Made by a program: the position numbers and the translations under genes
Shown here: one piece after another, positions 7 to 57,923 of the stretch
Layout of the letters: each line of letters opens with the position of its first letter
Numbering within the stretch: position 1 is the first letter of the stretch
Notes under the pieces: generated by a model
The model's database searches: none
Told to the model about the DNA's origin: nothing
Seen by the model: the letters and a program-made list of their open reading frames with translations, nothing else
Origin: Betaproteobacteria bacterium
GTDB taxonomy: Bacteria; Pseudomonadota; Gammaproteobacteria; Burkholderiales; JACQAP01
DNA length: 64,000 bases
Assembly: GCA_039931685.1 (NCBI GenBank)
Contig: JBDTRK010000004.1
Location: forward strand, 426 to 64,425
Reading direction: 5' to 3'

Positions 7-1698
7 TCAAGCGGTGGCCAGGCGCCGATGCGCCAGCGCCGCGCCCACCGCCGCAACGACGTCCGCTTCGCCGAACGGCTTCTGGATATGTCCCTCGAAA
101 CCCGCCTCCTGCGTGCGCTGGCGCTCCGCCTCGCTTGGCATCCCGCTCATCGCCACGACGGGCGGTTTCGGTGCTGTGGATCCGCGGCGCAATTCACGGA
201 TGAACTCGTAACCGTCCATCCCGGGCATGCGCAAGTCGCACAGCACCAGGTCGGGATGCGTTTGTCCAACGACCTGCAGCGCTTCGCGACCATCGCGGGC
301 GACCGAGACCCGCGCGCCCAATTGCTCAAGGAGGGCACCAAGTATTTCGCGCGTGTCGTCCGAGTCCTCGATCACGAGCAACGACAGCCCGGCAAGCGCG
401 GCCCCGCCTTCGGCCCCATCCGTCGCGGCGGGAACCGCGGCAGCGATAGCGGGGGAGATCGCCGCGGGGATCTCGATGGGAATTGCAACGGGCAGCCGCA
501 CGACCACTTCGGTGCCGCGTCCGGCGCCGGCGCTCGTGACGGTAACCGTTCCCTTGTGAAGCTCTGTGAATTGTTTAACCAGCGCCAGGCCAATGCCGAG
601 CCCCTGGTACTCCCGGCGTATGCCCTGCTCCTGTTGGCGGAAAATGTCGAATACGAACGGCAAAAATTCCGCCGCGATGCCGACACCCGAGTCGGCGACA
701 ACAACCAGTGCATAGCCCGCTTCCCGGCGCAGACTCACGCGAATGTTTCCCGTAGCGGGCGTGAATTTGACGGCATTCGACAAGATGTTGCTGCAGACCT
801 GTTGCAACCGGGCCGGATCGCCCTCGACGAACAACGGCTCATCGGTCAACGCAACGTCGAGGCGGATCGCCTTCTTCTCGATATCCTGGGCAACTGTTTC
901 CAGTGCGGTGCGAATCAACGCCGCCAAATCGAGAATCTCGAACTCGAGCGTTACCCCGCCGCGCGAAATCCGGTTCATGTCGAGCAAATCGTCCACCATC
1001 CTGCTCTGCAAGAGCGCATTGCGCTCGATGGCTTCGGCGGCCCGGTGCACCTGTTCCAGGTTTTCGCTTTTCCTGAGCAGGGTGGCCCATCCGAGAATCG
1101 GGGTCAACGGCGTGCGCAGCTCGTGGGACAGCACGGCGAGAAATTCGTCCTTCGCAGCCGACGCGGCCTCGAGCTTCACCACGGCGGCCTCGTATTGGCG
1201 GGTGCGATAGTTCTCGCGCAGCAGGCTGTCGCCAAGGACTTGCAGCAATTCGCCGCGCAGCAGCAGTCGACGCTTGGGCAGTGGCGTCTTTTTGCGCAGA
1301 ACGTTCCAGAGCCGGTCGAAGGGCACCCCGGCGGATTTGGCCCAGCGGTGGACGGCGGTTACCTGGGAAAATCCGGCGAGCGCATATCCCGCCACCGCAG
1401 CACCCACCACCTCCCCTTCCAGCACTAGCGACGTGCCAACGGCTGTGAGGCCATGCATTCCGTCCACGACGATGGCCGGGCGGCTATGAAGCTGCTTCAG
1501 GCAGCGGCGCGCGCATTCGGCAAACAGGCCCGGGTCGAAACCGAATTCGCCAAACAAATCGACCAGCGGCGTGACGCACGTGGAGCGCAGCACCACACGC
1601 TCGTCGACGTCGAACAGGACCACGGTAAGGCCCGTGACCTCGGTATATTTGTCCAGCGCCACGATCCACAATTTGGAGTCAAGCCTGGTGGAGTTCAC
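7..1698 (-). CDS. hybrid sensor histidine kinase/response regulator, soluble, with PocR-like N-terminal sensor region
   Basis: ORF 7..1851. It has an H-box (FLAVLSHELRTPLTPI), ATP-binding boxes (NAVKFT, ADSGVGI, GLGIGLALV) and a C-terminal receiver (LLVIEDSDDTREI...DLVLCDLRMPGMDGYEF). The ATG at 1851 would overlap the upstream kaiC-like gene by 121 nt. The in-frame GTG at 1698 (VNSTRLDSKLW...) is the likelier start. The PocR-like call for the N-terminal ~200 aa (Cys pair FAECARRC) is weaker. Confidence 0.85.
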   Translation of the reverse strand: MNSTRLDSKLWIVALDKYTEVTGLTVVLFDVDERVVLRSTCVTPLVDLFGEFGFDPGLFAECARRCLKQLHSRPAIVVDGMHGLTAVGTSLVLEGEVVGAAVAGYALAGFSQVTAVHRWAKSAGVPFDRLWNVLRKKTPLPKRRLLLRGELLQVLGDSLLRENYRTRQYEAAVVKLEAASAAKDEFLAVLSHELRTPLTPILGWATLLRKSENLEQVHRAAEAIERNALLQSRMVDDLLDMNRISRGGVTLEFEILDLAALIRTALETVAQDIEKKAIRLDVALTDEPLFVEGDPARLQQVCSNILSNAVKFTPATGNIRVSLRREAGYALVVVADSGVGIAAEFLPFVFDIFRQQEQGIRREYQGLGIGLALVKQFTELHKGTVTVTSAGAGRGTEVVVRLPVAIPIEIPAAISPAIAAAVPAATDGAEGGAALAGLSLLVIEDSDDTREILGALLEQLGARVSVARDGREALQVVGQTHPDLVLCDLRMPGMDGYEFIRELRRGSTAPKPPVVAMSGMPSEAERQRTQEAGFEGHIQKPFGEADVVAAVGAALAHRRLATA

Positions 1699-1730
1699 GC
1701 GGGCGCCTGTGCTTTCTTTTGCGAAGGCGC

Positions 1731-3233
1731 CTATAAGCGCGAGGGCGAGCGGGAGATCAGGCTGTGATAGCCGGAAAAAGCCATCTTGACGACCGAGGCG
1801 GCCAGTTCCCGCGGCAGCACGCGCATGCCCTCTCCGTCCACGACTTCGCACTCATGACTCACGCGACTGCACGGGTTCGAGCGCATCTTCCCGACCGTCA
1901 AAGCGGTGCGCAGCGTATCGCCGAGTTCGACGAAGTTCAGCAGCAGGATATTGTCCACCAGCGAGCTCATGGCGAAGTCCCCCATCATCGAGGACATGCC
2001 CAGCATCTCCGGATTCTCGTGGTTGTAGACGGCCGCGATCTGGTGCTCCTTCATCAGCGCGATCAGCGCATGAAAAAAGTCGCGGAACACGCGGCCCTGC
2101 GTGCCCAAAGCGGAGCCATAGGTCGACAGGCTGTCGATCACCACGCGCCTGGGCTTGAACTCCAGGATGATTTTCTCGATCTCGTGGAAATGGTGATCGA
2201 CCTCGATTTCCTGCGGCGCGTTGTAGTACAGGCGCACCATGCCCTGATCGATCGCCGGCTCCAGATCGATGCCGACGCTTGCCGCATTGCGCAGCAACTG
2301 CGGGACCTGCTCATCGAGCGACAGCATCATGCTGCGCTCGCCGCGCCGCGCGCCTTCCGCGATGTAGTGCAGGGCAATGACGCTTTTCCCGACGCCCGAC
2401 ATGCCTGCGAGCACGGTCGTGCTGCCGAGAAAATAACCGCCGTTGACCAGCTCGTCGAGCCCGGGCACGCCGGTGGACACGCGCGTCGTCGGATCGAAGG
2501 CCGCGGCGCGATCGCGGCTCGGCGCGCGAGGCGCCTGCACGCGCCGGTATACCTGGATGCCTTCCCCGTTGATGATCCTGAAGGAATGGCGGCCCATCTG
2601 GAAATCATGGCCGCGCGATTTGACGATCTCGATCGAGCGCACTCCGGCGCGCATCACATCCTCCAATTTGAGCCTGATGACGGTATCCGCGATCGATTCC
2701 TCGTGCAGCGCGCCAAATTCGCCGCCGTTCAGCGCGGCCGCCTCGAGGGCCAGCACGGCAGTCAGGTTTTCGCGTTGCAGGGCCTGAACCAGCGTGTGGA
2801 AACTCTCCCGGGAATTCGGATCTGTGTCGGACCCGAGCAGACCCGCAGCGCCGTCAATGAAAATCCGCTTTGCGCAAATTTTGCTCGCCTCGTCGAGAAG
2901 CAGGCTGTCGCACTGCTGCAGTTCCTGGCGAAACACTTCGCGCGTCGTGTAGATGACTTTCAGCAGCCCGCGACGCTCCAACTCCAGCAGGTCGCATCCC
3001 AGTCCGGCGGCATCCCGCGCCAGTTTTTCGGGCGACACCTCGAATACCACGATCACGCCAGGTTCGGCGAAATTCATTGCGCCGCGGTAGACGAATTCCA
3101 TTCCCATCGTGGTCTTCCCGGTGCCGATGGCACCTTCGATCAGGATCACGTTGCCGCGCGGAATACCGCCGGAAAGAATGGTGTCGAAGCCACGGATGCC
3201 GGTTGGGATAAGTTCCGTTTTCTGCTCGTCCAT
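1731..3233 (-). CDS. KaiC-like double RecA-fold ATPase
   Basis: 500-aa ORF made of two tandem RecA/KaiC-type halves. Each half has its own Walker A loop (GAIGTGKTT near aa 35, GMSGVGKSV near aa 287) and a Walker-B-like strand (RIFIDG, RVVIDSLS). The length and the internal duplication match the KaiC family. Confidence 0.9.
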   Translation of the reverse strand: MDEQKTELIPTGIRGFDTILSGGIPRGNVILIEGAIGTGKTTMGMEFVYRGAMNFAEPGVIVVFEVSPEKLARDAAGLGCDLLELERRGLLKVIYTTREVFRQELQQCDSLLLDEASKICAKRIFIDGAAGLLGSDTDPNSRESFHTLVQALQRENLTAVLALEAAALNGGEFGALHEESIADTVIRLKLEDVMRAGVRSIEIVKSRGHDFQMGRHSFRIINGEGIQVYRRVQAPRAPSRDRAAAFDPTTRVSTGVPGLDELVNGGYFLGSTTVLAGMSGVGKSVIALHYIAEGARRGERSMMLSLDEQVPQLLRNAASVGIDLEPAIDQGMVRLYYNAPQEIEVDHHFHEIEKIILEFKPRRVVIDSLSTYGSALGTQGRVFRDFFHALIALMKEHQIAAVYNHENPEMLGMSSMMGDFAMSSLVDNILLLNFVELGDTLRTALTVGKMRSNPCSRVSHECEVVDGEGMRVLPRELAASVVKMAFSGYHSLISRSPSRL

Positions 3234-3251
3234 GGCATGTTCCCCTCAAGG

Positions 3252-3650
3252 TCAGGCGTTACTGGTGACGGACGCGCGCTGCGGCCGGCCGACGTCGGCC
3301 CTGTCAGTGCCTGCGGTTCGCAGCAGACGCATCAGATCCTGGCGGCCCTGGCGTGTTGCGGCAATTTTCATGAATTGCGACATCAATCCGTCCGGAACAG
3401 CACCCCACTGCAGGACATACATGCGAGCGGGCCGCGCAGCATTTTGCAAGGATGTCAACAAGCGGGCATCGATCAACTGATCGAGAGACTGCGCGACCTT
3501 ATCGCGTTCGTATCCGAGCCAGTCGGCGATGCGTTCGCTGGTCAACAGCGCGCGCGGGTGCCGATGGAAGAACAGCAGCAAATCGAGGTCGCAGGTGTGG
3601 CGGACGGCTGTCATGCGACTGAGCATCGACTGCAGTTCATGCGCGTCCAT
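3252..3650 (-). CDS. small winged-helix-like protein, first gene of the kaiC-like operon
   Basis: The ORF runs to 3800, but the ATG at 3650 (MDAHELQSML...) leaves room for the divergent promoter. It contains an HTH-like stretch (SERIADWLGYERDKVAQSLDQLIDARLL). Its stop lies 18 nt upstream of the kaiC-like ATG. The family was not recognised with certainty. Confidence 0.55.
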   Translation of the reverse strand: MDAHELQSMLSRMTAVRHTCDLDLLLFFHRHPRALLTSERIADWLGYERDKVAQSLDQLIDARLLTSLQNAARPARMYVLQWGAVPDGLMSQFMKIAATRQGRQDLMRLLRTAGTDRADVGRPQRASVTSNA

Positions 3651-3772
3651 ATGCGTCGCACCGGGGGGGCTGAAGTGTAATATCGTTATGCTAGGCTTGA
3701 GCAAGATAACAGGCACGATGCAGTAGTGCGCCGATAGGACTATAGAGGGCTTGAACAGATCGGAACCCAGCC

Positions 3773-4174
3773 ATGGACGATGCGATAGCGAAAATGACAA
3801 AGACCATCCTGGTCGTCGACGACCATCCGGACATCCGTTCGTTCATCAGTGCCGCCCTCGAGGCGGCGGGCTATCAGGTGCGGACGGCGGAGGACGGCGT
3901 CCAGGCGCTCGTGCGCCAACGCGAACACCCCGCGGACCTGCTCATCACCGACATCTTCATGCCGGAACAGGATGGGTTCGAGACGATCTCACGCTGCAGG
4001 GCCGAGTTCCCGCGTACGCGGATCATCGTCATGTCCGCCGGCGGCAGCAGCCTCATGAAGCAGGACTACCTTGCCACGGCAAACCTGCTGGACATCGACG
4101 CAACGCTGCGCAAGCCGTTCGATGTGGGGACGCTTCTCGAAACCGTTCGCGGCGCGCTGCAAGCACCCCAGTAA
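3773..4174 (+). CDS. single-domain CheY-like response regulator
   Basis: Receiver motifs: ILVVDDHPDIRSF, LLITDIFMPEQDGFE, IIVMSAGG, LRKPF. There is no output domain. An alternative start is the ATG at 3794 (MTKTIL). Confidence 0.9.
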   Translation: MDDAIAKMTKTILVVDDHPDIRSFISAALEAAGYQVRTAEDGVQALVRQREHPADLLITDIFMPEQDGFETISRCRAEFPRTRIIVMSAGGSSLMKQDYLATANLLDIDATLRKPFDVGTLLETVRGALQAPQ

Positions 4175-4283: not shown

Positions 4284-5435
4284 TCAGGCCGCTTTCGGAA
4301 TATCGCCATCCACTGCCGCCTGCGTTCCCGGCAACGTAAAGCGGAACGTCGAGCCGAGCCGTTCCCGGCTTTCGACGCTCACCGTACCGCCGTGTGCTTC
4401 GACCAGCACCTTGACGATGGCGAGACCCAGGCCGGAGCTTCCCTCCTTCTGCCCATCCGTCTGCAGTTTGTCGAACACTGTTTCAAGACGATCCGCGGGG
4501 ATTCCCGTGCCGTCGTCGCTGACCCGGCACTCGACCTTGCCCTGAGCGTCAAGCTGCCTTGCCCCCACGCTGATCTTGCCGTGCGGTGTGTGCGCAATGG
4601 CGTTGGCGATGAGATTCTGAAAAACCCGCCGCAACGCGCTTGCATCCGCATAAACCGTCAGATCGTCGGGGACCTCGTTCGTCAGTTGCGTGCTGGCAGT
4701 CCCGGCCACCGGATGCAGGTCGCGCATCAGGACCTCGACGAGCGGCCACAAATCAAACACGCGCCGCTCGAGTTTGACGCCGGCCTGGGTGAGCAGGTTC
4801 GTGTGCTCCTCGATCACCTTGACCACCAGCCCATCGAGCTGCTGCACATTGCGGCGGAGCGTTTTTAACATGCGGATACTGTCGGCCCCCGCGCCTTGCT
4901 CCGGGAGCCTGGACTCCAGAACGCTCGAAGCCAGTGAAATGGCCGTCAGCGGCGTGCGTAGATCGTGCGCCACGAAAGCCAGATACTCATCCCGGCGCTG
5001 CTGGACTTCGAACGCCCTCTGTGTCGCATATGCCTTCACGGCCATGCCGATCGCCCCGTCCAGGACACGATTCAGGATGTGAAAGGATTTGCCCCGCAGG
5101 ATCAATCCGTCGCCTTCGGCCAGATCGTGGATGCAGCCGCGCAGGATGTTGTACTCCGCAACGACTTCTTCGATATCGAAGCCGTCCTGCAGACGCTGCA
5201 AACCATGGGCGGGTGGACTGCCATCGCTGATCGCTTCCGGGATGGTCTGGTCGGACCCCGAGCGGAGCGCGATGGCCAACTCGTCGATGAGTTCAGGCAC
5301 GTGATCGTTGAGGGTCGGCGCATCGAGCCCCTGCGCCGAGGGAAGCGCCCTGACCTGCTGCCGCCAGCTCGCGAACAGGATATCGCGCTTCTGCTTGATG
5401 AGCGCGGCCAGTTTGTCGACATCGGTAGACGGCAT
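4284..5435 (-). CDS. soluble sensor histidine kinase with RsbRD_N-like N-terminal domain
   Basis: H-box FVAHDLRTPLTAI; N, G1 and G2 boxes (NLIANAIAHT, DDGTGIP, GSSGLGLAIV). The N-terminus (KLAALIKQKRDILFASWRQQVR...HVPELIDELA) resembles the RsbR-co-antagonist N-terminal domain. The ATG at 5435 is preceded by GGGAGTGGAA. The ORF-track start is 5543. Confidence 0.85.
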   Translation of the reverse strand: MPSTDVDKLAALIKQKRDILFASWRQQVRALPSAQGLDAPTLNDHVPELIDELAIALRSGSDQTIPEAISDGSPPAHGLQRLQDGFDIEEVVAEYNILRGCIHDLAEGDGLILRGKSFHILNRVLDGAIGMAVKAYATQRAFEVQQRRDEYLAFVAHDLRTPLTAISLASSVLESRLPEQGAGADSIRMLKTLRRNVQQLDGLVVKVIEEHTNLLTQAGVKLERRVFDLWPLVEVLMRDLHPVAGTASTQLTNEVPDDLTVYADASALRRVFQNLIANAIAHTPHGKISVGARQLDAQGKVECRVSDDGTGIPADRLETVFDKLQTDGQKEGSSGLGLAIVKVLVEAHGGTVSVESRERLGSTFRFTLPGTQAAVDGDIPKAA

Positions 5436-5624
5436 TTCCACTCCCACTTCGGTCTGAATTGGCGAAGCTCCGGCGGCCGGACGATCGTGCGGATCAACGG
5501 TGCAATGCCGAGAATACCAAGCATCCCGGCGCATTGCGCGCATCCGGCCATAGTCTGGCCGGACTACTGCGGCAAGCCGTCCCCAACGTCGCTCAGGCGT
5601 CTACTGGATTGATGCAACCAACCG

Positions 5625-7078: not shown

Positions 7079-7768
7079 TTACGATTCCGCCACCCAGGGC
7101 GCCGGACTGCGGCCCTGCATGTTGCCGAAGTCGCCATGCAGTTCAATGTGCACCAGTCCCCGTTGGATGGCATAGCGCACCAGTCCGACCACGTCATGAA
7201 TATTCAGCTTCTTCATGATGTGGTTGCGGTGCGTCTCTGCGGTCTTGAAACTGATGTTCAGGAGCTTTGCGGCCTCCTTTGTGGCGCTGCCTTCGGCAAT
7301 GAGTTGCAGCACCTGACGCTCGCGCGGGGTCAGCGGATCGGGTGGCGCAGTGGTCTTTTCGAGATAGGCATCCACTACCGACGCGGCGACCCCCGGGCTG
7401 AGGTAGACCTCTCCGCGGAATATCTCGCGAATGGCGCGAAGCAGGTCGTCGGCCGCCTGGGACTTCAGCACGTAGCCCTTTGCGCCGACCTTCAGCGCCT
7501 GCAGGACGTAGCCCTTGTCGGGATACATGGTCAGAATGACCGTCTTGATCTCGGGTGACAGGCTGTGGATTTCGCGGGCAGTATCCAGCCCGTTCAGCAG
7601 CGGCATGGAAAGATCGAGCACCGCAATCTCGGGATTCAGGGTACGCGCGAGTTTAAGCGCCTCATGGCCGTCGGCCGCCTCGCCCACAACCACGTGACCA
7701 GCCTTTTCCAGGATGCCGCGCAATCCCTGGCGAACAATCTGGTGGTCATCTGCCAAAAGTATCCGCAT
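7079..7768 (-). CDS. NarL/FixJ-family response regulator (receiver + LuxR-type HTH)
   Basis: MRILLADDHQIVRQGL...VLDLSMPLLNG, followed by LTPRERQVLQLIAEGSATKEAAKLLNISFKTAETHR. The ATG at 7768 lies 1 nt from the upstream kinase stop (7770-7772). Confidence 0.92.
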   Translation of the reverse strand: MRILLADDHQIVRQGLRGILEKAGHVVVGEAADGHEALKLARTLNPEIAVLDLSMPLLNGLDTAREIHSLSPEIKTVILTMYPDKGYVLQALKVGAKGYVLKSQAADDLLRAIREIFRGEVYLSPGVAASVVDAYLEKTTAPPDPLTPRERQVLQLIAEGSATKEAAKLLNISFKTAETHRNHIMKKLNIHDVVGLVRYAIQRGLVHIELHGDFGNMQGRSPAPWVAES

Positions 7769-7769
7769 T

Positions 7770-8753
7770 TCAGTCTCCGAGAGGGATGTCTGCCTGAATG
7801 GTCGTGCCATTCAAAGGTCCGGTGATTATTCGCAGCGCCCCGCCCAGGGTACTGACGCGTTCGCGGATTCCGGTCAACCCCAGTCCTTGCGGCTGCCGGT
7901 TCGCGTCGAAGCCCTTGCCATTGTCGCGAATGCTGCACCTCACCCCGGCAGGCAGGCGTCGCAATTCGATGTGGACCGAACCGGCAGCCGCGTGCTTGAC
8001 CGCATTGTTCAGGGCCTCCTGCACGATCCGGTACAGTGCCGATTCCACGGTGGTCGGCAGTCGCGCACCGTCGTCCCCGATGACGGACACGCCGATCCCG
8101 GTGCGCCTGGCTATCTGCTCGCCGAGAAACTCGAGGGCGGGAAGCAGTCCCAGATTGTCCAGGACAGTGGGACGCCATTCGTGCGACAGGTTGCGCAACC
8201 CGGCCTCGATCTGCGTGAGCAGTCCGCCGACCATTTTGAAACGTCCGCGTTGTTTGGGCGGAAGCTCGCTGGCGATGTCCGCCACCGCGATATGCACCGA
8301 CGCAAGCAACTGGCCGGCCTCGTCGTGCAAGACCTGCGCAACCCGCCGCAGTTCGCCTTCCAGAACCTCGTTCAGGTGGCGCAGCGCCCGCGCACCCTCC
8401 TGCGCGCCGCGGTGGCTCATCTCGAAGGGCGCGAGGCACTCGGCGAAGAAATCGCCTGCAGCCCGCAACGTGCGGGCGTCGGGAGGCGATTCCGCCGAGA
8501 GTCGTCGCAACGCCAGATGGTGGATTTCAGCCAGTTCGAGTACGCCACAGTCGTCCACCAGGGCCTGCCGGGCCAACTCGTATCCGCGACTCAGCGACGC
8601 CTCGCTGCCGTCCGCGAGGAACGACCGGAGGCTCTCCCGGTAGCGCGTGGCGAGCGTGGCATCCACGTCCTGCGCGACATGCTGCTCGCCGGATTCGCGT
8701 TCGCCGCGCAGTGACTGGGGCGCCGTTTTCCTTTCCAGCATCGTAACGCTCAT
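7770..8753 (-). CDS. soluble HisKA_3-type histidine kinase with RsbU_N-like N-terminal domain
   Basis: HisKA_3 H-box (VLHDEAGQLLASVHIAV); HATPase boxes (EALNNAVKHA, DNGKGF, GLGLTGIRERV). The N-terminal ~90 aa (SLRSFLADGSEASLSRGYELARQALVDDCGVLELAEIHHLALRRL) resemble the RsbU N-terminal domain. The ATG at 8753 overlaps the upstream stop as ATGA. Confidence 0.85.
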   Translation of the reverse strand: MSVTMLERKTAPQSLRGERESGEQHVAQDVDATLATRYRESLRSFLADGSEASLSRGYELARQALVDDCGVLELAEIHHLALRRLSAESPPDARTLRAAGDFFAECLAPFEMSHRGAQEGARALRHLNEVLEGELRRVAQVLHDEAGQLLASVHIAVADIASELPPKQRGRFKMVGGLLTQIEAGLRNLSHEWRPTVLDNLGLLPALEFLGEQIARRTGIGVSVIGDDGARLPTTVESALYRIVQEALNNAVKHAAAGSVHIELRRLPAGVRCSIRDNGKGFDANRQPQGLGLTGIRERVSTLGGALRIITGPLNGTTIQADIPLGD

Positions 8754-9151
8754 CGCCGCCTCCATTTCGTCACGGTAACGGCCGTGCCGCGCCCGCACTC
8801 CGAGGTGATGGCGAATTCGTCCATGATGCGCTTGATGCCAGACAGGCCGAGTGCGATGCCGCCCGCCGCTGAATAGCCCACTTGTGCCGCGAGATCGATG
8901 TCGGCGATGCGCGGTCCCTGGTCCACGGCAATGACGGTCATTCCGCTCTTGGCGCCCTCGTTGGCCATGCTGAGATAGATTTCACCCTGGCACGCGTAAA
9001 TGAAGATATTGCGGACCAGTTCGGTGATGGCCGTTGCGACGAGTGTCGCTTCGCATGCCGAGAACCCGAGCTGCACCGCCATGTCCCGCCCCTCGCGCCG
9101 CGCGGTTACCAGGTCGTGGCCCGACGACACCGGCACGCACACTTCCTGCAT
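8750..9151 (-). CDS. RsbT/RsbW/SpoIIAB-like anti-sigma-type serine protein kinase (HATPase_c_2)
   Basis: About 133 aa. Motifs: TAITELVRNIFIYA (N-box-like), IAVDQGPRIADIDLA, GGIALGLSGIKRIMDEF. Starts at 9151 (MQEV..., AGGA-like RBS), 9175 or 9247 are all possible. Confidence 0.75.
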   Translation of the reverse strand: MQEVCVPVSSGHDLVTARREGRDMAVQLGFSACEATLVATAITELVRNIFIYACQGEIYLSMANEGAKSGMTVIAVDQGPRIADIDLAAQVGYSAAGGIALGLSGIKRIMDEFAITSECGRGTAVTVTKWRRR

Positions 9152-9540
9152 TGTCCTGAACGCTGGCCTGCCCATGTTCAATTCCCGGCGGCATTGCCGC
9201 CCTCGCATTTCTATTGTTCGGACCCGTTTGCCGATGCACGCATGCAATCGGAACGGATGTTACTTTCCATGCCCGCCGCGGCATTCGAGCCCTGGGCGCC
9301 GATTACGACAAAATGATGACGGACAACGACAAAATGGCGATGGGAAGGCGAATCACGCAAAAACGAACTTCCCTGATCGGCATACCGTCCTTTTCACGAT
9401 GTAAGTGTCCTCCTGCTCTTTGCCGATATCTGTACGATACCGAACATAACCGAGTACTCTAGGGTACATATCCTTCGAAGTGGCACGCTCGAGCAACCCG
9501 CTTCCCTGACCGATTCCTCTCGAGGAAATCGAGGTGTAAC

Positions 9541-10278
9541 GTGAAAACAAAAGCTCCCCCGTCAAAGATCCATCCTCCCAACATAAACCATTTGCTGGCC
9601 GCGCTGCCCCCGGCGGACTTTCAGCGCCTGCTGCCGAAGCTCGAACACGTTGCCTTGCCGCTCGGCTGGTCCGTCTATGAAGCCGGCGGCACGATGGATC
9701 ATGTGTTTTTCCCCACCGAGGGCATCATTTCCCTGCTCTATGTCATGGAGAACGGCGCCTCCGCGGAAATCGCGATCACCGGCAACGAAGGCCTGGTCGG
9801 GATTTCCCTGTTCATGGGAGGCGAAAGCACGCCGAGCCGCGCCGTCGTGCAAAGCGCCGGTCAGGGCTACCGGTTGCCGGCGAAGCTGCTCAAGCAGGAA
9901 TTCGAGCGCGGCGGCGAGCTGCAGCACTTGCTGCTGCGTTACACCCAGGCGCTGATCACGCAGATGGCACAGACCGCGGTGTGCAACCGCCACCATACGG
10001 TGGAGCAGCAACTGTGTCGCTGGCTCCTGCTCAGTCTGGACCGCCTGCCCACCAACGAGCTGCGCATGACCCAGGAACTGATCGCCAACATGCTGGGCGT
10101 GCGCCGCGAAGGCGTCACCGAGGCGGCCGGAAAACTGCAAACCGCCGGAATAATTGAGTACCACCGCGGCCAAATCACGGTGCTGGACCGGCCGCAACTG
10201 GAAAAACGCGTGTGCGAGTGCTACGCCGTGGTCAAGCGCGAATCAGACCGTCTTCTCATTCGTAAAATCGCCGCCTGA
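9541..10278 (+). CDS. Crp/Fnr-family transcriptional regulator
   Basis: cNMP-binding-like beta-barrel (VFFPTEGIISLLYVMENGASAEIAITGNEGLVG) and a C-terminal HTH (MTQELIANMLGVRREGVTEAAGKLQ). GTG start at 9541. Confidence 0.88.
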   Translation: MKTKAPPSKIHPPNINHLLAALPPADFQRLLPKLEHVALPLGWSVYEAGGTMDHVFFPTEGIISLLYVMENGASAEIAITGNEGLVGISLFMGGESTPSRAVVQSAGQGYRLPAKLLKQEFERGGELQHLLLRYTQALITQMAQTAVCNRHHTVEQQLCRWLLLSLDRLPTNELRMTQELIANMLGVRREGVTEAAGKLQTAGIIEYHRGQITVLDRPQLEKRVCECYAVVKRESDRLLIRKIAA

Positions 10279-13930: not shown

Positions 13931-16900
13931 TCATGCACCGAGGGCTGGCGTGGGATGAATTCTGACCTCGACGGTATGTTCCCGGTGGTCGTCGACGAGG
14001 GCAATCGCCTGGTCGCGTTGTTCGACGCCGTCCACGGTCACTCGCGTAGGGCCGGTTCCATCGCGCGCATTCACCACGGCAATGCGGTAGACGGTCTGCC
14101 CGTGCAGGTAGCGCAAAGTGAAGCCCGCCCAGTCCGCAGGCAGGCACGGCGCGAAGCGCAGCGTACCCGCTTCGCGCCGCAGGCCGAGCAGGGATTCCAG
14201 GATCAAGCGGTACATCCAGCCGGCGGAACCCGTGTACCAGGTCCAGCCGCCGCGGCCGGTATGCGGGGAGACGGCGTAGACGTCGGCCGCGACTACGTAA
14301 GGTTCCACTTTATAAGTGGCGATCGCCTTTGCGGAGTTGGCATGATTGACCGGATTGATCAGGTTGAATAATTCCCACGCGCGCGCGTTGTCGCCCAGTT
14401 CGGCGAACGCCATGACCGCCCAGATGGCGGCATGGGTGTACTGGCCGCCGTTCTCGCGCACACCGGGAACGTAGCCCTTGATGTAGCCGGGGTTCAGGGG
14501 CGACTTGTCGAAGGGCGGATCCAGCAACTGAATCAGTCTATGGTCGCGGCGGACCAGGCGCTGGTCCAGCGAATTCATCGCCAGGCGCACGTGTTCGGGC
14601 TCCCCTGCTCCCGAGAGTACCGACCAGCTCTGCGCGATCGAATCGATCTGGCACTCCGTGTTGGCCGCCGACCCGAGGGGCGTGCCGTCATCAAAGTAGG
14701 CGCGGCGGTACCAATTGCCGTCCCAGGCGTGCTCTTCGATATTCGCGCGCAGCTGCGCCGCCTGCGTCTGGCAGCGTTCGGAGAACGCCGAGTCGCCGTG
14801 AGTGCGCGCGAGCGGCGCAAACTGCATCAACACCCGATACAGGAAGAAACCCAGCCACACGCTTTCCCCTTTGCCCTGCATGCCGACCAGATTCATGCCG
14901 TCGTTCCAGTCCCCGGAGCCCATCAGCGGCAGGCCGTGCACGCCGAAACTCAGGCCCTTTTCGATGGCGCGCACGCAATGCTGGTAAAGGGTCGCGCTGT
15001 CCCGGGAGCGTACGGGCAGGTCGTAATACGAATCGTCCTCCGGGTTGACCGGCCGGCCTTCGATGAAATGAATGGATTCGTTCAGCACGCTGGCATCGCC
15101 GCTGTTCAGGACATAGCGGCACACCGCCTCCGGCAGCCAGAGGAAGTCGTCGGAGCAATGTGTGCGCACCCCGCGGCCGGCGGGCGGATGCCACCAGTGC
15201 AGCACGTCGCCCTCGGAAAACTGGTGCGCGGCGCAACGCAGCAGATGCTCGCGCGCCAGCCGCGGCTCGGCATGCACCAATGCCATCGTGTCCTGCAACT
15301 GATCGCGAAAACCGAAGGCACCACCCGATTGGTAATAACCGCTCCTCGCCCAGAAGCGGCAGGCCAGCGTCTGATACAGCAGCCAGCCGTTGCAGAGCAC
15401 ATCGAGCGACGGGTCCGGCGTTTGCACCTGCACCACACTCAGCGCGCCGATCCAGAATTGGCGGATGGTTTCGAGCGACTTGCGCGCGGCTTCCGGCCCG
15501 CGCAAGCGCTGCACCAGGCCGCCCGCGTCGTCGCTGCCCTGCCGGCCCGCGGCGCCGAGCCTGAAAACGATTTCGCGCTCCTGCCCGTCCTCGAGCTCGA
15601 ACGGAACCTGGATCGCCGCGCAGGGATCCAGGCCCGCGCCCACCTTGTTGGACAGTTTCGAACGGCCCATTGCAAGCGGGTTCCTCAGCGTGCCGTTGCG
15701 CCCGACAAACTCGCGGCGATCCCCGCTGAAGGTCACGTTTGCCGTCCTCGTCGCATCGTTCGCGTCGAAGAAGGCAACGCGGTCGGCAAATTCGGGGCTG
15801 TAGGGATTGCGCGCGCACAGCGCGCCGCTCGACGGGTCGATCTCGGTGACGACGTGCATCGCCGATTTCGGCCGCAGGTCGCCCAGTACCCATTCCACGT
15901 AGCCGGTGGCGGAGAGCCGGCGCGGCCGCCCGGAGTTGTTGCGGATTTTCAGCACCGAGAACTTGACCGCCGCCTCCGCGTCCACATAGACGACGAGATC
16001 CGAGCTGATGCCCTCCTCGTCATGCTGGAACAGGCTGTAACCGAATCCATGGCGGATGACATAAGGCGTGCTTCCGGCGCAGGGCAACGGCGTGGGCGAC
16101 CAGAAATAGCCGCTCTCCTCATCGCGGATGTAAAGCGCCTCGCCGGTCGAATCGCTGACCGGATCATCGCCCCACGGCGTAAAGCGGAACTCATGGGCGT
16201 TTTCGCTCCACGTGTAGGCCGCGCCGGACTCCGAAATGACGGTGCCGAACTGGGCATTGGCGATGACGTTCACCCACGGCGCGGGAGTCGGTTGCCCCGG
16301 CGCGGTGGTAATGACGTACTCGCGTCCGTCCGCGGAAAACCCGCCGAAGCCGTTGAAGAACAGCAGATCGCTGCGCGGCAATACCATAGTAGCCGTCGCA
16401 TCGACGCCGCGGATCCGCGTGGGCACCAGGCGCGGCATGGATACCACGCGCCTGTCTTTCGAGCCGCTGCGAATGCGGGGCGGCAGCAGGTCGGGGATGG
16501 ACGCTTCGCGCCGCTCCTTCGAGCGGCGGCGGCTGATCTGGTCGGAGAGCGAGCCGCGGGCGTCGGTGATGATCGCGCGCGCAACCGTCTGGAACAAGGT
16601 GCGATCCTCGCTGGATATCTGCTCCGCGACCCTGACGAAGATGCCGCCGGGCCGGTCTGAGAGGTTCGCGGTCATGCCCGCGGCGATCAGCCCCATGATC
16701 TGTTCCTGCAGGAGCTGGCGGTATCCGGCGTGATCTTCGTTCCAGATCACCAGGTCGACCGCCAGGCCCTTGAGCCGCCAGTAGGCATGGGCCTGCACGA
16801 GTTGGCGCACCAGCTCGATATTCGCCGAGTCGCCGATCTGCAGCAGCACGATCGGCAGGTCGCCGGATATGGCATAGCCCCACAGGCCGGACTGGCCGCG

Positions 16901-19900
16901 CCGATTGCTGGTGAGAACGGCCGCGTCGGCCCGCAGCGAGGCATTGGCGTAAATGATCGAACCGGCCAGCCGCCCGTAGAGTTGCGCGTCGGATTCGGTG
17001 CCATTGATCTGGCGCAGGTTCACCCAGCCGTGCGTCCAGGCCAGATCGAAAACGCGGTCGGCAAGATGCCGGTCCCGGTACTTGCCGACCAGGGCCAGGG
17101 CCGCGGCGTGCGTTTCGCCGATGCCGGAAACCACGTCGATCGTCGCCGCCTGGCCAGCATCGAGCGTTATGCGATGGCGGATGGCCACGATCGGATCGAG
17201 TACCGAACCCTCACTGCCGGACAAGGCTCCGGCGCGGGTCATCGCCTGCGGGGATTCGGTGGTGCGGGCACGACCGATGAATTGCATGCGATCCGTTTCA
17301 TACGACACCTCTCCGGTCTCGGCGCCATGCACCGCCATCAGGTGGAACATCGAGGGCATGTGCTCGTCGACCGAGCGAGGCCGGCGGGTACACAGGATCG
17401 CCTGCCGGTCGCGCAGTATTTCGGTCTGCACGAACAGGTTGCTGAAGGCCGGATGCAGCGCATCGGCGGCGGCCGGCGCGAGTACCACCTCGGCATAGCT
17501 GGTGATGTCCAGGGTACGGCGCGAATTCGAGCGGTTGGTGATGCGTATGCGGCGCAGTTCGATGTCGTCTTCGGGCGAAACGACGATTTCAGTATAGGTT
17601 TCGATATTGTGGTCGCGGCGGCGAAACTCGGCCCGCCCCTCGGAGAATATCGCCTCGTAGGCGTCCGCGCGCTTGAGCGTCGGCTGGTGCGCGTTCGACC
17701 AGAACTCCCCGCTCGCCACGTCGCGCAAGTAGCAGAATGCACCCCAGTTGTCGCAGGTGGTGTCTTCGCGCCAGCGCGTGACCGCGATGTCCTTCCAGCG
17801 GCTGTAGCCGCCGCCCGCGTTCGTCACCATGACGTGATAGCTGCCGTTCGACAGCAACTGCACCTCCGGGATCGCAGTATCCGGGCTCGCAATCACGCGC
17901 ACCGGCATTTCCGGACCCGTCGAGCGCGCGTGGATGTCGAACAGGCCAGCGGTGCTCGAATGAAAAACCGCGGGCTTCGGAATCCGCTCCTGCAGCAGCA
18001 GCATCGTCGCCTGGAACAGCGGCTCCGAGGCGAATCGCTTCTGCATCGGGCTGTCGAGAATGAGCCGCCCCAGGGCCAGCAGGATCATGCCCTGGTGATG
18101 CGACATGAACGAACGCACGACGGCGCTCGATTGGCCGCGAGGCAGGCGCGACGGCGTGTAGTCGATCGCCTCGTAGAAACCGTATTTACCCTCGAATCCC
18201 GCGGCTGCGAGCCGCAGCAGGTTCTCGCACGCCGCCTCGGGCGAAACCATCAGCGCAAGCGCCGAGGCGTAAGGCGCGATGACCAGATCTTCGGTCAATC
18301 CGCGTTTGAGACCGAGACCGGGCACGCCGAAGGCGCGGTACTGGTAGTTGAGTCCGGTGTCGACCAGGTTATAGCCCGATTCGGACATGCCCCAGGGCAC
18401 GCCGCGCTGGTTCCCATAGGCAATCTGGCGCTGCACCGCCGCGCGGCAGGTCTGGTCGAGCAGCGTGTCTTCGTACCCCGGCATCACCAGCAACGGCATC
18501 AGGTACTCGAACATCGAACCGCTCCACGACAGCAAGGCCGGCTCGCCGCCGGTGCTGGTGAGCATGCGTCCGAGCGCAAACCAGCTTTCCTCCGGCAGTT
18601 TTCCCTGGGCGATTGCCACGAAGCTGGAAAAACGCGCTTCCGAGGCCAGCAGATCGTAATCGCTCGAATCGCGCCGGCCTTCGGTCACGTTGTAGCCGAT
18701 GGCCAGCAGGCGGCGCGCGTGGTCGTAGAGGAAGTCGTACTCCATGTCGGCGAACTCGCCCGCTTGCCTCGCGAGTTCCTCGATCTGCCCGATCCTCGCC
18801 TGCGCGCGACGGCCGGTCTCGTCATCGCGCGTTGCCAGCTCGCGCAACGTCGGAATGCCGCCGGACTCCGGCAGCGCGCGCGCCGTGCCGGGAAAGAACA
18901 ATGCAATTTCGTCGAGCGCGTCGCGGCTTTGCCGCTCGAGGGCTTGCGCCCAGTCCTGCGCCGCTGGCGCGGACGCGCCGTCGGCAGCGGCAATTTGCGC
19001 CGCGCGACTGGCGAGCTTCTCGACGAGCGTCCTCGCGGACTGCAGCGTAGTCGGGGCGAACTGCAAATCGGGCACCGAATCGTTTCCGGATAGGACGTCG
19101 TTCAGCAGGCTGGAGGTATCGCTCAAACCCTCGAACCATCGTGGCGCCAGGATCCTTGCGTCGCAAAGCGCGAGCAACCCCGCGCGCAGCGTAAGCAGAT
19201 AGCCGGCTAGGTTGCCGCTGTCGACCGACGAAACATACAGCGGCGCCAGCGGCTTCAGCGAGCTCGTGTCGTACCAGTTGTAGAAGTGGCCCTGGAAGCG
19301 CTCCAGCATCTGCATCGTGCGCAGCGTGTTCGCGGTGCGCTCGATCAACCGTCCAGCCGTGATATAACCGAAGTCATACGCGGAAAGACTCGCGAGCAAC
19401 GAGAACCCGATGTTGGTTGGCGAGGTGCGGTGCGCGAGCACGGCGGCGGGATGTTCCTGGTAATTGTCCGGCGGCAGCCAATGGTCCTCGGGACCGACGA
19501 AGCGCTCGAAGAACACCCACGTCTTGCGGGCAAGCTTGCGCAGAAAAGCCGTATCGAGACTCGTGAGCCTGGGCTCGCGGCGGGCACGCGGCTGACCGAG
19601 CCACCATGCGATGGCGGGAGAAGCAAACCAAAGCATGAGGACGGGCCCCGCCACGGCCAGCGCGGCGGGATTGTAGGCGCCGAGTTCAATTGCCGTGACG
19701 CAGGCGATCACCGGGGCGAACCACATCGAACGATACGATGCCGCAAGCTCGCTGCGTCCCTGCGCACGGCCTCGATTCTGTTCGCTCGACGCCGTCCATT
19801 CCAGCAATCCGGTCCGGGTCACCAGTACGCGCACCATCGTGCGCCCGATCGCGAGAACGCTGTAGAACGCCTCGTAGGGCAGACACGCCAGGGCGAACGC

Positions 19901-22615: not shown

Positions 22616-22821
22616 GGGCAAGCGGGATCGCCCCGTGAAAACCAGTGAATGAAAAAAACTGCAACGCGGCAGTTGCGGCTATCGGGCGCACAGACTTCGG
22701 CGCTGGCCCGGCGAGCTCGAACAGCCCGTGCCATGATGCCGTTGTCGCGCATTTCGCTCTGTGCACTATCGAACATACGGCACGCGCGTTTGTATTTTCG
22801 GGCCGGGCGATTTGCACCCGC

Positions 22822-24455: not shown

Positions 24456-24722
24456 ATGAAACCAGCTGGCCATTTTTGTTCCGCGCTTCTGGCAATTGTC
24501 GTATCGCTGTCCTGCGTCGGTTGCGCATCGAATGCAAAGAAGGAAGGGATGCGGAATTATTTCGACGACGGCATCGTCCCCCTCAAGGTCAAGTTGGCCT
24601 ATATCAATGGCCCGACCTTGCAATGGGCCTGCGCCGGGATCGAAACCTTCGATTGGGCCGATGCGGGCGCGCATGCCCGCCTTGACCGCGATACGTCAAG
24701 CCAACTGCCCGGGCTCGGCTAG
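24456..24722 (+). CDS. possible small lipoprotein
   Basis: MKPAGHFCSALLAIVVSLSCVGCASN looks like a lipoprotein signal, with GGAG upstream. Its 3' end overlaps the convergent hybrid kinase gene by 4 nt. Weak call. Confidence 0.35.
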   Translation: MKPAGHFCSALLAIVVSLSCVGCASNAKKEGMRNYFDDGIVPLKVKLAYINGPTLQWACAGIETFDWADAGAHARLDRDTSSQLPGLG

Positions 24723-27253: not shown

Positions 27254-27361
27254 TGCGGCCTCCCGGTATGGGTTTTGTTTTTCCGCGAAAACCGCGAAGT
27301 CAACCCTGTCCGCCCACTATGGGCTGTTGGCAGCGGCACAAGACTCGGGGCTCCGCGACGA

Positions 27362-27748
27362 TCAGGGATGCTGGTGCTGGCTGGCGGACTCCCGGAGTAG
27401 ATTCTTGAGTACGGCCATGACTTCTTCGATTTCGCTCGACTTGTCGAAAAAATAATCAGCTCCGTAACTGAGGCATTTCTCCCGGTTTTCGGGCGTCGGA
27501 AAGTTCGTCAGCATGATGATCTTCGGCGGCCGCGGATACTTCATGACGTCCTCGATCAGGTCAATGCCGCTGCGCTGCGGCATCCGCACATCGACGATCG
27601 CCACGTCGGGTTCAAGTTTTTTTACCAGGTCGGCAGCGTCATAGGCATTGTCCGCCTGAGCGACGATTTCGATGCCCTCGACCTCGGTGAGAAGCTCCGC
27701 GAGCCGCACCCGAATGAGTGCCGAATCATCCACAATCAGGACTTTCAT
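27362..27748 (-). CDS. single-domain CheY-like response regulator
   Basis: MKVLIVDDSALIRVRL...VAIVDVRMPQRSGIDL...IIMLTNF...FDKS. Confidence 0.9.
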   Translation of the reverse strand: MKVLIVDDSALIRVRLAELLTEVEGIEIVAQADNAYDAADLVKKLEPDVAIVDVRMPQRSGIDLIEDVMKYPRPPKIIMLTNFPTPENREKCLSYGADYFFDKSSEIEEVMAVLKNLLRESASQHQHP

Positions 27749-28218
27749 GAACGCCTGGCGATCTGCAGCGCGATCATTCGGAAATATCCTGCGGCTCGCC
27801 AGGTGGTCATCGCTTGGTCCGGTGTGAGCGAGCTTTCAGGAAATTTCAGTCTCCGCGACAGCCTGTGGCAATCCCTCCGGGATCGAGTCATCGCGATATC
27901 GCTCCCAAAACGTGGCCGACGGCAACAGGGCTGAAAAACGCAAGCGAGTCCGACTGGAGTAAACCCCCGCACATGGCTGGCCTGCAGGCTTCGAAACGCA
28001 AATCCATCGGTTATCTTGTCTCAAATACTCCGACGTTTATCCGGGTATCAGACTAGCCTACATATGCGACCGCCCGCTATCCAAAAGCATTGATTTTCCC
28101 GCTGGGGAAGCACTGATTTTGTCGTAGCGAAACGGCTACACGCGTGAAGCAAAATCCTACCGGGCGATTGCGGACCGGAAAGAAAGCGCAAGGGGGAGAA
28201 GCGTAAAGACCGGCGCGG

Positions 28219-28848: not shown

Positions 28849-28932
28849 CGCGCTACATTCGCTCCGGGTTCAATAGCATGCGTGGCCGACGTCCGTCATT
28901 GCCGGACGCTCGATACGGGCACAAACCGGGTG

Positions 28933-57914: not shown

Positions 57915-57923
57915 GCGGATACC

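What the first reader, a model, noticed from the sequence alone, without database searches (positions are those of the whole stretch)
7079..9247. RsbT-like serine kinase coupled to an RsbU_N-containing histidine kinase: partner-switch parts rewired onto a two-component output
Three genes are joined by overlapping or abutting stop and start codons (ATGA at 8750-8753; 1 nt separates the stop and start at 7768/7770).
- A ~133-aa HATPase_c_2 protein of the RsbT/RsbW/SpoIIAB type.
- A soluble HisKA_3 kinase whose N-terminal ~90 aa resemble the RsbU N-terminal domain, which is the RsbT-binding domain of the Bacillus PP2C phosphatase RsbU.
- A NarL-type regulator.

I recognised no STAS-domain protein (RsbR, RsbS or RsbV), PP2C phosphatase or sigma factor anywhere in the window. 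A second kinase 2.3 kb away (4284..5435) carries an RsbRD_N-like sensor domain.

The arrangement suggests the RsbT-RsbU_N contact is reused to switch on a histidine kinase instead of a phosphatase. Stressosome-independent versions of this wiring are poorly characterised.
Basis: partly seen in the sequence, partly recalled or inferred. Interest (0 to 1): 0.65.

Follow-up and report, generated by a model that had tools for sequence, protein, structure and literature searches.

The report
Stressosome-less RsbT–histidine kinase operon
This three-gene operon is the cut-down remnant of a known six-gene bacterial stress-sensing module: the sensor cage and its reset phosphatase have been deleted, but the small switch protein RsbT is still kept next to the histidine kinase it most likely activates.

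Summary
Three translationally coupled genes on the minus strand encode:
- an RsbT-type GHKL protein (8750..9175; 141 aa rather than 133);
- a soluble RsbU_N–HisKA_3 histidine kinase (7770..8753);
- a NarL-type regulator (7079..7768).

No STAS, PP2C or sigma gene lies anywhere in the 64 kb.

The wiring was not invented here. Relatives in Burkholderiales MAGs (RsbT ~61-62% identical) carry rsbR-rsbS-rsbT-rsbX-HK-RR, a stressosome output type already noted in the literature. The window belongs to a clade that lost rsbR and rsbS. An in-frame deletion also removed rsbX and left its start region and about 33 codons fused to the kinase.

rsbT remains under purifying selection (dN/dS 0.22-0.35). The kinase's RsbU_N domain and linker stay invariant wherever rsbT is adjacent and decay where it is absent. 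In the window's subclade, all six fixed RsbT changes lie in ATP-binding motifs, including Gly89→Arg in the G1 box.

Most likely RsbT now works as a stressosome-free activator of the kinase. I could not exclude STAS partners elsewhere in the genome.

Verdict: a new variant of a known kind, of moderate interest. It is a natural counterpart of the laboratory B. subtilis strains whose stressosome was deleted.

The parts
A GHKL partner-switch kinase fold.
   Evidence: - Pfam HATPase_c_2 36 bits.
- Nearly all of the closest homologues are 141 aa, and JGI names them RsbT.
- ~61-62% identical to the RsbT of RSTX operons.
- AF2 model: pLDDT 86, pTM 0.82. Best Foldseek hits are SpoIIAB and RsbW.
- dN/dS is 0.22-0.35 within the reduced clade.
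8909..8911 (-). Codon for Arg89 of RsbT, replacing the second glycine of the G1 box (DxGxG becomes DQGPR).
   Evidence: - Gly in 62 of 62 full-type RsbT; Arg in 8 of 8 members of the window's subclade.
- It aligns with the second Gly of DEGVGI in SpoIIAB.
7770..8753 (-). Soluble histidine kinase (327 aa): RsbX-derived leader, RsbU_N domain, helical linker, HisKA_3 DHp with His143, and HATPase_c.
   Evidence: - Pfam.
- NCBIfam NarL-family kinase models.
- PDB hits to DesK and VraS.
- AF2 model with pLDDT 82.8.
8655..8765 (-). Vestige of rsbX. It comprises the inherited ribosome-binding site GGAGG, the ATGGAGGCGGCGATGA junction with rsbT, and ~33 codons that now form a disordered N-terminal leader on the kinase.
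   Evidence: - tblastn with L001 RsbX aa 1-36 against 8765..8658: E = 5e-5, 47% identity, in the kinase's frame.
- Protein and DNA alignments.
- RsbX HMM: 12.4 bits, against a maximum of 6.4 among 3000 shuffled leaders.
- pLDDT is below 50 for aa 1-26.
- dN/dS of the leader is 0.3-0.64 in most pairs, generally above that of the kinase body.
8418..8645 (-). RsbU_N domain of the kinase (aa 37-112).
   Evidence: - Pfam PF08673, 35.6 bits against a cut-off of 25.5.
- The family profile hits the solved RsbU N-domain entries 2J70, 2J6Z and 1W53 at E = 3.6e-4 to 1e-3.
8394..8435 (-). Linker motif L(S/A)PFEMSHRGAQEG (aa 107-120). It lies within one continuous predicted helix (aa 93-163) that runs from the RsbU_N domain into the DHp.
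   Evidence: - Nearly invariant from Burkholderiales to Myxococcales.
- It decays in kinases that have no adjacent rsbT.
- Helix seen in the AF2 model.
7079..7768 (-). NarL/FixJ-type response regulator (229 aa: REC plus GerE helix-turn-helix).
   Evidence: - Pfam and NCBIfam.
- 81-82% identical to the regulator of full-type operons.
- dN/dS 0.05-0.2.
9431..9468 (.). Two 16-bp palindrome-like boxes (TGTAC-N6-GTACA type) with centres 22 bp apart. They sit in the intergenic region shared with the divergent CRP/FNR-family gene and are a candidate operator.
   Evidence: - The block around the boxes is 100% conserved apart from two variable positions across loci whose coding dS is ~0.5.
- 5 window matches against 0.28 expected by chance.
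- Present in every locus of the window's subclade, and next to the cNMP-binding gene in L001 and L002.
9541..10278 (+). Divergently transcribed CRP/FNR-family regulator. It is syntenic in the reduced subclade.
   Evidence: Pfam cNMP_binding plus HTH_Crp_2. Synteny in L007 and L009.

Best explanation
**What it is.** The three genes form an operon that descends from the six-gene module rsbR-rsbS-rsbT-rsbX-(RsbU_N histidine kinase)-(NarL regulator).

**How it arose (shown).** In the ancestor of this clade, rsbR and rsbS were lost. An in-frame deletion then joined the start region and first ~33 codons of rsbX to about codon 5 of the kinase. The kinase therefore inherited rsbX's ribosome-binding site and its ATGA coupling to rsbT.

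**How it most likely works (inferred).**
- RsbT still binds the dimeric RsbU_N domain and the invariant helical linker of the kinase. This would favour the autophosphorylating state (His143) and then phosphotransfer to the NarL-type regulator.
- With no STAS cage encoded nearby, RsbT would no longer be released on demand. It would be a permanently free activator subunit or a sensor in its own right.
- Control would then shift to RsbT abundance or to RsbT itself. Transcription from the region shared with the CRP/FNR-family gene, with its paired palindromes, is one candidate input.
- In the window's subclade the ATP pocket of RsbT has been remodelled (Gly89→Arg and five further fixed changes). 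This suggests that its serine-kinase function was lost or altered once its substrates were gone.
For: **Ancestry**
- Relatives L001-L006 and 15 of the 21 loci from the genome survey carry R-S-T-X-HK-RR.
- Neighbouring genes are shared with the window: GAF-GGDEF, CRP and ferritin.

**Deletion scar**
- Homology of the kinase leader to RsbX is shown.
- The same leader occurs in L007, L010-L015 and further proteins.
- Leader-bearing kinases form one clade, sister to the full-type L001 and L004.

**rsbT is still functional**
- The ORF is intact and coupled to the kinase gene in every member that still carries rsbT.
- dN/dS is 0.22-0.35 at dS ~0.5, against 0.14 for a full-type pair.

**rsbT is still coupled to RsbU_N**
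- 31 N-domain and linker positions are conserved in full-type kinases.
- Of these, 0-1 are changed in the 9 kinases with an adjacent rsbT, and 3-10 in the 5 without. Kinase-core positions show no comparable separation between the two groups.

**Architecture**
- One continuous helix (aa 93-163) runs from the RsbU_N domain into the DHp.
- This matches the linker mechanism proposed for RsbT acting on RsbU, which its authors extended to RsbU_N kinases (PMC12143880).

**ATP pocket**
- All six fixed differences from 62 full-type RsbT fall in the N box, the G1 box or the ATP lid.

**Precedent**
- B. subtilis lacking its stressosome keeps an RsbT-dependent, stress-inducible response (PMC11821858).
- Kinase-dead RsbT D78N still activates RsbU in vitro (Kang 1998, as cited).
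Against: - No physical or functional data exist for any RsbU_N kinase. The RsbT–kinase contact is inferred only from homology and co-conservation.
- Sister lineages L015, L035 and L038 have lost rsbT altogether, so RsbT can be dispensed with.
- The effect of Gly89→Arg is untested. The Asp of the G1 box and the Glu and Asn of the N box are kept.
- In B. subtilis, the D78N change blocked the stressosome-independent response in vivo. An ATP-dependent role for RsbT therefore cannot be dismissed.
- The rest of the genome is unknown.
- The co-conservation test has few independent lineages.
Confidence: 0.6

Rival explanations
1. The module is not stressosome-independent. rsbR and rsbS (and perhaps rsbX) lie elsewhere in the genome and still sequester this RsbT, so the operon is simply a split version of the ordinary system.
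For: - Only 64 kb of the genome is visible.
- One MAG (SMAG_U4605) has both a full module (L022) and an orphan kinase–regulator pair (L017).
- Regulation in trans is therefore plausible in this family.
Against: - In all 15 full-type loci surveyed, R, S, T and X are contiguous.
- The rsbX deletion scar shows that the local module was dismantled, not merely moved.
- The remodelled ATP pocket, including G89R, fits poorly with phosphorylation of RsbS.
- In runs X1 and X2, which hold the window's organism at 4-7x depth, only 35-45-nt pieces match rsbR-rsbS at 80% or more. Runs X3 and X4 give real rsbR-like contigs. This is weak evidence because sensitivity is borderline.
Confidence: 0.2
2. rsbT here is a decaying relic with no role. 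The kinase is controlled by something else, and rsbT is being lost as it already was in L015, L035 and L038.
For: - Sister lineages lack rsbT.
- ATP-binding motifs are altered.
- dN/dS is about twice that of a full-type pair.
Against: - dN/dS of 0.22-0.35 is far below 1 across dS ~0.5.
- There are no frameshifts or stop codons in the 8 subclade sequences.
- Arg89 is fixed in all of them rather than variable.
- The RsbU_N domain and linker stay invariant only where rsbT is present.
- Translational coupling to the kinase gene is kept in all members.
Confidence: 0.12
3. The small protein acts as an anti-sigma factor or as a serine kinase on an unrelated STAS or sigma partner, in the manner of RsbW or SpoIIAB. 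Its position next to the kinase would then be incidental.
For: - The best sequence and fold matches among solved structures are SpoIIAB and RsbW.
- NCBI names relatives 'anti-sigma regulatory factor'.
Against: - No RsbT match appeared among solved structures in these searches, so this ranking is uninformative.
- Orthology is to the RsbT of RSTX operons.
- No sigma or anti-anti-sigma gene is in the window.
- The gene is translationally coupled to an RsbU_N protein.
Confidence: 0.05

Closest known systems
rsbR-rsbS-rsbT-rsbX stressosome modules of Gram-negative bacteria with a two-component downstream module (Pané-Farré 2005, from my own knowledge; Heinz et al. 2022, PMC9237108; noted in Ho & Bradshaw 2025, PMC12143880)
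   Same: - Orthologous RsbT.
- The same RsbU_N–HisKA_3 kinase and NarL regulator. They are 65-70% and 81-82% identical to those of the full-type loci L001 and L004.
- Shared neighbouring genes.
   Different: - rsbR, rsbS and rsbX are absent.
- The kinase carries a 33-codon rsbX vestige.
- RsbT has a G1-box Gly→Arg change and five other fixed changes in its ATP pocket.
B. subtilis RsbT–RsbU (activation of a PP2C phosphatase through the RsbU N-domain and coiled-coil linker)
   Same: - An RsbT-family protein paired with an RsbU_N dimerisation domain.
- That domain is joined to the effector by a long helix.
   Different: - The effector is a histidine kinase, not a PP2C phosphatase.
- The output is a NarL-type regulator, not RsbV/RsbW/SigB.
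- There is no stressosome locally.
Laboratory B. subtilis strains with the stressosome deleted (Khadka et al. 2025, PMC11821858)
   Same: RsbT is present without RsbR or RsbS. In those strains signalling stays RsbT-dependent and stress-inducible.
   Different: - This is a natural, long-lived arrangement seen in several lineages, with a different effector.
- The ATP pocket is altered here, whereas the B. subtilis response needed Asp78.
Moorella thermoacetica MtR/MtS/MtT with an RsbU_N–GAF–GGDEF output (Quin 2012, as cited in PMC12143880)
   Same: RsbT-type control of an effector other than a phosphatase, through an RsbU_N domain.
   Different: That output is a diguanylate cyclase, and its stressosome core is present.

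Membership tests
RsbT (stressosome switch kinase) | Small single-domain GHKL (HATPase_c_2) protein of about 130-140 aa | tested here: met
   Pfam 36 bits against a cut-off of 27.4. AF2 model with pTM 0.82 and Foldseek hits to SpoIIAB and RsbW at E ~1e-9.
RsbT (stressosome switch kinase) | Orthology to the rsbT genes inside rsbR-rsbS-rsbT operons | tested here: met
   ~61-62% identical to the RsbT of L001 and L004, which sit in RSTX operons. JGI assigns the RsbT name to relatives.
RsbT (stressosome switch kinase) | Adjacent STAS partners RsbR and RsbS | tested here: not met
   No STAS domain in any window ORF. tblastn with RsbR and RsbS gave E > 0.2. The upstream neighbour is a divergent CRP-family gene.
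RsbT (stressosome switch kinase) | Intact N, G1 (DxGxG) and G2 nucleotide-binding boxes | tested here: not met
   The G1 box reads DQGPR: Gly89→Arg, where 62 of 62 full-type RsbT have Gly. The G2 region reads GIALGLSG instead of GLGLGLPG. The Glu and Asn of the N box and the Asp of the G1 box are kept.
RsbT (stressosome switch kinase) | Serine kinase activity on RsbS and RsbR | not testable with these tools
   This needs a biochemical assay.
RsbU_N-domain effector proteins | N-terminal RsbU_N domain (PF08673) | tested here: met
   35.6 bits against a cut-off of 25.5. The family profile hits the solved RsbU N-domain at E = 3.6e-4 over RsbU residues 7-88.
RsbU_N-domain effector proteins | Helical linker running continuously from the N-domain into the effector | tested here: met
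   The AF2 model has a single helix from aa 93 to 163, with pLDDT about 80-96. This is a monomer model only.
RsbU_N-domain effector proteins | Binding of RsbT to the N-domain and linker | not testable with these tools
   Only indirect support: N-domain and linker positions stay conserved where rsbT is adjacent and decay where it is absent. No multimer prediction was available.
HisKA_3 / NarL-type two-component system | DHp with the H-box His (HDxxxQ), an HATPase_c domain, and a cognate REC-GerE regulator | tested here: met
   - LHDEAGQ with an invariant His143.
- HisKA_3 22.6 bits, just under the cut-off of 24; HATPase_c 58.6 bits.
- DesK and VraS are the best solved-structure relatives.
- The regulator has REC plus GerE.
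Stressosome module (RsbR-RsbS-RsbT-RsbX) | STAS scaffold proteins and an RsbX PP2C feedback phosphatase encoded with rsbT | tested here: not met
   No STAS gene is present. Only a 33-codon N-terminal vestige of rsbX survives, fused to the kinase.
Anti-sigma partner-switch (RsbW/SpoIIAB) | Adjacent sigma factor and anti-anti-sigma (STAS) genes | tested here: not met
   No sigma-70 domain protein or STAS protein was found in the window.

The most novel reading that the evidence does not exclude
After the stressosome was lost, RsbT in this clade became a pseudokinase-like, free-standing sensor or activator subunit of a histidine kinase. It would be a natural minimal RsbT–RsbU_N signalling unit, showing that the RsbT–RsbU_N pair can signal without any STAS cage. 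Comparable reductions recur: rsbT-kinase-regulator operons arose at least twice, and other lineages have lost or truncated rsbT as well.
Probability: 0.35. Interest if true: 0.7.

Novelty: new variant of a known kind. Interest (0 to 1): 0.5.

Why it matters
- **An open question in the field.** It is debated whether the RsbR/RsbS cage senses stress or whether RsbT does. Recent B. subtilis work points to RsbT (PMC11821858).
- **A natural test system.** These operons contain RsbT and an RsbU_N effector but no cage, and selection has kept them over substantial divergence. They offer a simple place to test what RsbT does on its own.
- **An untested effector class.** No experimental study of an RsbU_N histidine kinase turned up in my searches.
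- **Gene-fusion mechanics.** The rsbX scar is a clear example of an in-frame deletion that donates one gene's translation start to the next gene.
- **Limits.** The organism is an uncultured soil or sediment betaproteobacterium, and every functional statement here is an inference.

Tried and rejected
- **Genome search with RsbT alone.** It found nothing, so the window's own genome is not among the GTDB representatives.
- **Identifying the organism.** Only sediment, soil and rhizosphere metagenomes hold the window. The question of STAS genes elsewhere in the genome could not be settled.
- **Laying reads on L001.** Repeating it on L016 gave only weak negative evidence.
- **RNA runs.** None were found, so there is no expression evidence.
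- **Foldseek with the whole kinase model.** Catalytic-domain hits dominated and said nothing about the N-domain. A profile search of PDB sequences answered that question instead.
- **Consensus scans.** No sigma-70-type promoter or intrinsic terminator was found between 6800 and 9700.
- **RsbRD_N kinase as a recycled RsbR sensor.** I rejected the idea that the 4284..5543 kinase carries the sensor domain of the lost RsbR. Similarity is only 15/47 identities, pairwise E = 0.013. Its HisKA-type DHp also makes the NarL regulator an unlikely partner.
- **Remnants of rsbR or rsbS in 9176-9540.** tblastn found none.
- **Complex model.** An RsbT–kinase multimer could not be built because the structure tool predicts one chain at a time.
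Full report
**1. The observation**

On the minus strand, three ORFs are packed end to end. The TGA stop of the first overlaps the ATG of the second (ATGA at 8750-8753). The second and third are separated by one base (TGA-A-ATG, 7772..7766).

Pfam places the first protein in HATPase_c_2 (36 bits, cut-off 27.4). The second has RsbU_N (35.6 bits, cut-off 25.5, aa 37-112), HisKA_3 (22.6 bits, just below 24) and HATPase_c. The third has Response_reg plus GerE. NCBIfam puts the kinase and the regulator among NarL-family systems.

The kinase at 4284..5543 does carry an RsbRD_N domain.

I scanned every plausible ORF of the window against Pfam. I also searched all six frames by tblastn with RsbR, RsbS and RsbX from related loci. 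No STAS, PP2C or sigma gene was found.

Contigs from two independent metagenome runs cover crp–rsbT–kinase without a single difference. The arrangement is therefore not a mis-assembly.

One correction: nearly all of the closest homologues of the small protein are 141 aa, so its start is most likely ATG 9175, not 9151.

**2. Where it comes from**

Nearly all homologues of the small protein that carry a JGI name are called RsbT. Relatives about 61-62% identical lie in the operon rsbR (RsbRD_N+STAS) – rsbS (STAS) – rsbT – rsbX (SpoIIE/PP2C) – RsbU_N kinase – NarL regulator. One of them is a Burkholderiales MAG. A GAF-GGDEF gene, a CRP-family gene and a ferritin-like gene lie nearby, as in the window.

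A 96%-identical relative (L007) and a 71%-identical group (L009-L011) have the window's reduced form: rsbT-kinase-regulator, with the CRP-family gene divergent upstream.

A genome survey with a kinase alignment returned 21 loci, all from MAGs:
- 15 have the full R-S-T-X-HK-RR module.
- 2 Myxococcales loci have S-T-HK-RR.
- L014 and L018 have T-HK-RR.
- L015 and L017 have HK-RR only.

More reduced forms appear among metagenome contigs. L036 and L037 are T-HK-RR. L035 (a Woeseia MAG) and L038 are HK-RR only.

**3. The scar**

The window's kinase is 327 aa, against 302 aa in full-type operons. Its first ~33 residues are homologous to the N-terminus of RsbX:
- tblastn with L001 RsbX aa 1-36 hits 8765..8658 in the kinase's frame (E = 5e-5, 47% identity).
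- The protein and DNA alignments are colinear for about 100 nt past the start codon.
- An RsbX HMM scores the leader at 12.4 bits, against a maximum of 6.4 for 3000 shuffled leaders.

The junction with rsbT is the rsbT-rsbX junction of the full operon (AAATGGAGGCGGCGATGA, including a GGAGG ribosome-binding site). An in-frame deletion therefore removed rsbX from about codon 35 to about codon 5 of the kinase. The kinase now uses rsbX's translation start.

The leader is predicted to be disordered (pLDDT below 50 for aa 1-26). In most pairs it evolves faster than the kinase body, with dN/dS of 0.3-0.64 against 0.06-0.25.

All leader-bearing kinases form one clade, sister to the full-type L001 and L004. 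L018 groups with a full-type locus (L020) and has no leader, so it represents an independent loss. In P0140 the leader derives from the N-terminus of RsbT, which marks yet another deletion.

**4. Is rsbT still doing something?**

Three results say yes.

- **Purifying selection.** Within the reduced clade, rsbT has dN/dS of 0.22-0.35 at dS ~0.5. That is purifying selection, although about twice as relaxed as in a full-type pair (0.14).
- **Co-conservation with the kinase.** I took the 31 N-domain and linker positions conserved in at least 14 of 15 full-type kinases. Kinases with an adjacent rsbT have 0-1 of these changed (9 loci). Kinases without one have 3-10 changed (5 loci). Kinase-core positions show no comparable separation between the two groups. 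Only a few of these lineages are independent, so I treat this as supportive rather than conclusive.
- **Architecture.** The motif L(S/A)PFEMSHRG is nearly invariant from Burkholderiales to Myxococcales. It lies within a single predicted helix (aa 93-163) that joins the RsbU_N domain to the DHp carrying His143. This is the geometry through which RsbT is proposed to act on RsbU. The authors of that proposal extended it to RsbU_N kinases (PMC12143880).

**5. A changed ATP pocket**

I compared the window's subclade (8 sequences) with 62 full-type RsbT. Exactly six positions that are at least 90% conserved in the full type have changed in at least seven of the eight subclade sequences:
- A54→V/I and V58→F, in the N-box helix;
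- G89→R, the second Gly of the G1 box DxGxG (100% Gly in the full type);
- T103→A, S104→A and L107→I/M, in the ATP lid.

All six lie in nucleotide-binding motifs. Other reduced lineages (L014, L018, L036, L037) keep the ancestral G1 box. The change therefore probably followed the loss of rsbR, rsbS and rsbX.

From established knowledge of GHKL kinases, I infer that nucleotide binding or catalysis is impaired or altered. This has not been shown.

Kinase-dead RsbT D78N still activates RsbU in vitro (Kang 1998, as cited). In vivo, however, D78N blocked the stressosome-independent response of B. subtilis (PMC11821858). The meaning of the remodelling is therefore open.

**6. Likely control**

The intergenic region shared with the divergent CRP/FNR-family gene holds a block that is conserved apart from two variable positions. 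It contains two palindrome-like boxes of the TGTAC-N6-GTACA type with centres 22 bp apart (9431-9446 and 9453-9468). A third copy lies at 10508-10523.

The window has five matches against 0.28 expected by chance. The pair occurs in every locus of the window's subclade. A single copy lies next to the cNMP-binding gene of the full-type loci L001 and L002.

This is probably the operator of the CRP-family protein. Whether it drives the rsbT operon is an inference.

**7. Comparison with what is known**

[quoted passage not shown] The RsbT–RsbU_N–kinase wiring is therefore known from genomics, though untested.

I found no description of natural operons that keep rsbT and the RsbU_N kinase but lack rsbR, rsbS and rsbX. 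The closest parallel is the laboratory B. subtilis strain with its stressosome deleted (PMC11821858).

**8. Limits**

- The rest of the genome is unknown. In runs X1 and X2, which hold this organism, only chance-sized pieces match rsbR-rsbS at 80% or more, while X3 and X4 contain real rsbR-like contigs. This is weak evidence against a second copy elsewhere.
- No expression data exist.
- No multimer model could be made.

**Verdict**

This is a new, reduced variant of a known kind of system, of moderate interest.

Noticed in passing
window 9431-9468 and 10508-10523: Paired 16-bp palindrome-like boxes (TGTAC-N6-GTACA type) lie between the CRP-family gene and rsbT. A third copy lies upstream of the DUF5670, DUF3185 and ferritin-like genes. 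Together they look like a small regulon of the CRP-family protein.
   Followed up: partly
window 7..4174: A KaiC-type signalling cluster: a PocR–HisKA–HATPase–REC hybrid kinase (7..1851, minus strand), a two-domain KaiC homologue (1731..3233, minus strand) overlapping it, and a stand-alone receiver (3773..4174, plus strand).
   Followed up: no
window 13931..22621 (minus strand): A 2896-aa protein with a weak, sub-threshold GT2 match, a glucoamylase-like domain and two GH94 domains. It resembles cyclic beta-1,2-glucan synthases.
   Followed up: no
window 34754..38583: A stand-alone adenylation–FkbM methyltransferase–carrier protein, followed by a thioesterase with a TubC_N docking domain.
   Followed up: no
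window 57900..61400: GC content falls from ~0.61 to 0.50-0.54 inside the polysaccharide gene cluster (a PMT_2-type glycosyltransferase and a GT2 enzyme). This may be a horizontally acquired insert.
   Followed up: no
L019-L034 compared with L001 and L004: The RsbR of most full-type operons is ~92% identical between loci whose kinases are only ~50% identical. The sensor-scaffold protein evolves far more slowly than the output proteins.
   Followed up: no
P0140 (protein): The leader of this kinase derives from the N-terminus of RsbT (MAS..VRVQVSSDNDLIPARREGR fused to LAEHY). A separate deletion therefore removed most of rsbT together with rsbX.
   Followed up: partly
L017 and L022 (same MAG, SMAG_U4605): One genome holds both a full R-S-T-X-HK-RR module and an orphan paralogous kinase–regulator pair. 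Regulation in trans by a single RsbT is conceivable.
   Followed up: no
window compared with L007: Synonymous divergence rises along the operon: regulator 0.012, kinase 0.056, rsbT 0.121. This may reflect recombination within the operon.
   Followed up: no
window 24719..30051: A second signalling cluster: a hybrid kinase, a receiver, a NarL regulator and a REC–HisKA_3 kinase. It resembles the genes that directly flank the reduced operon in L014 and L015, which suggests a rearrangement.
   Followed up: no
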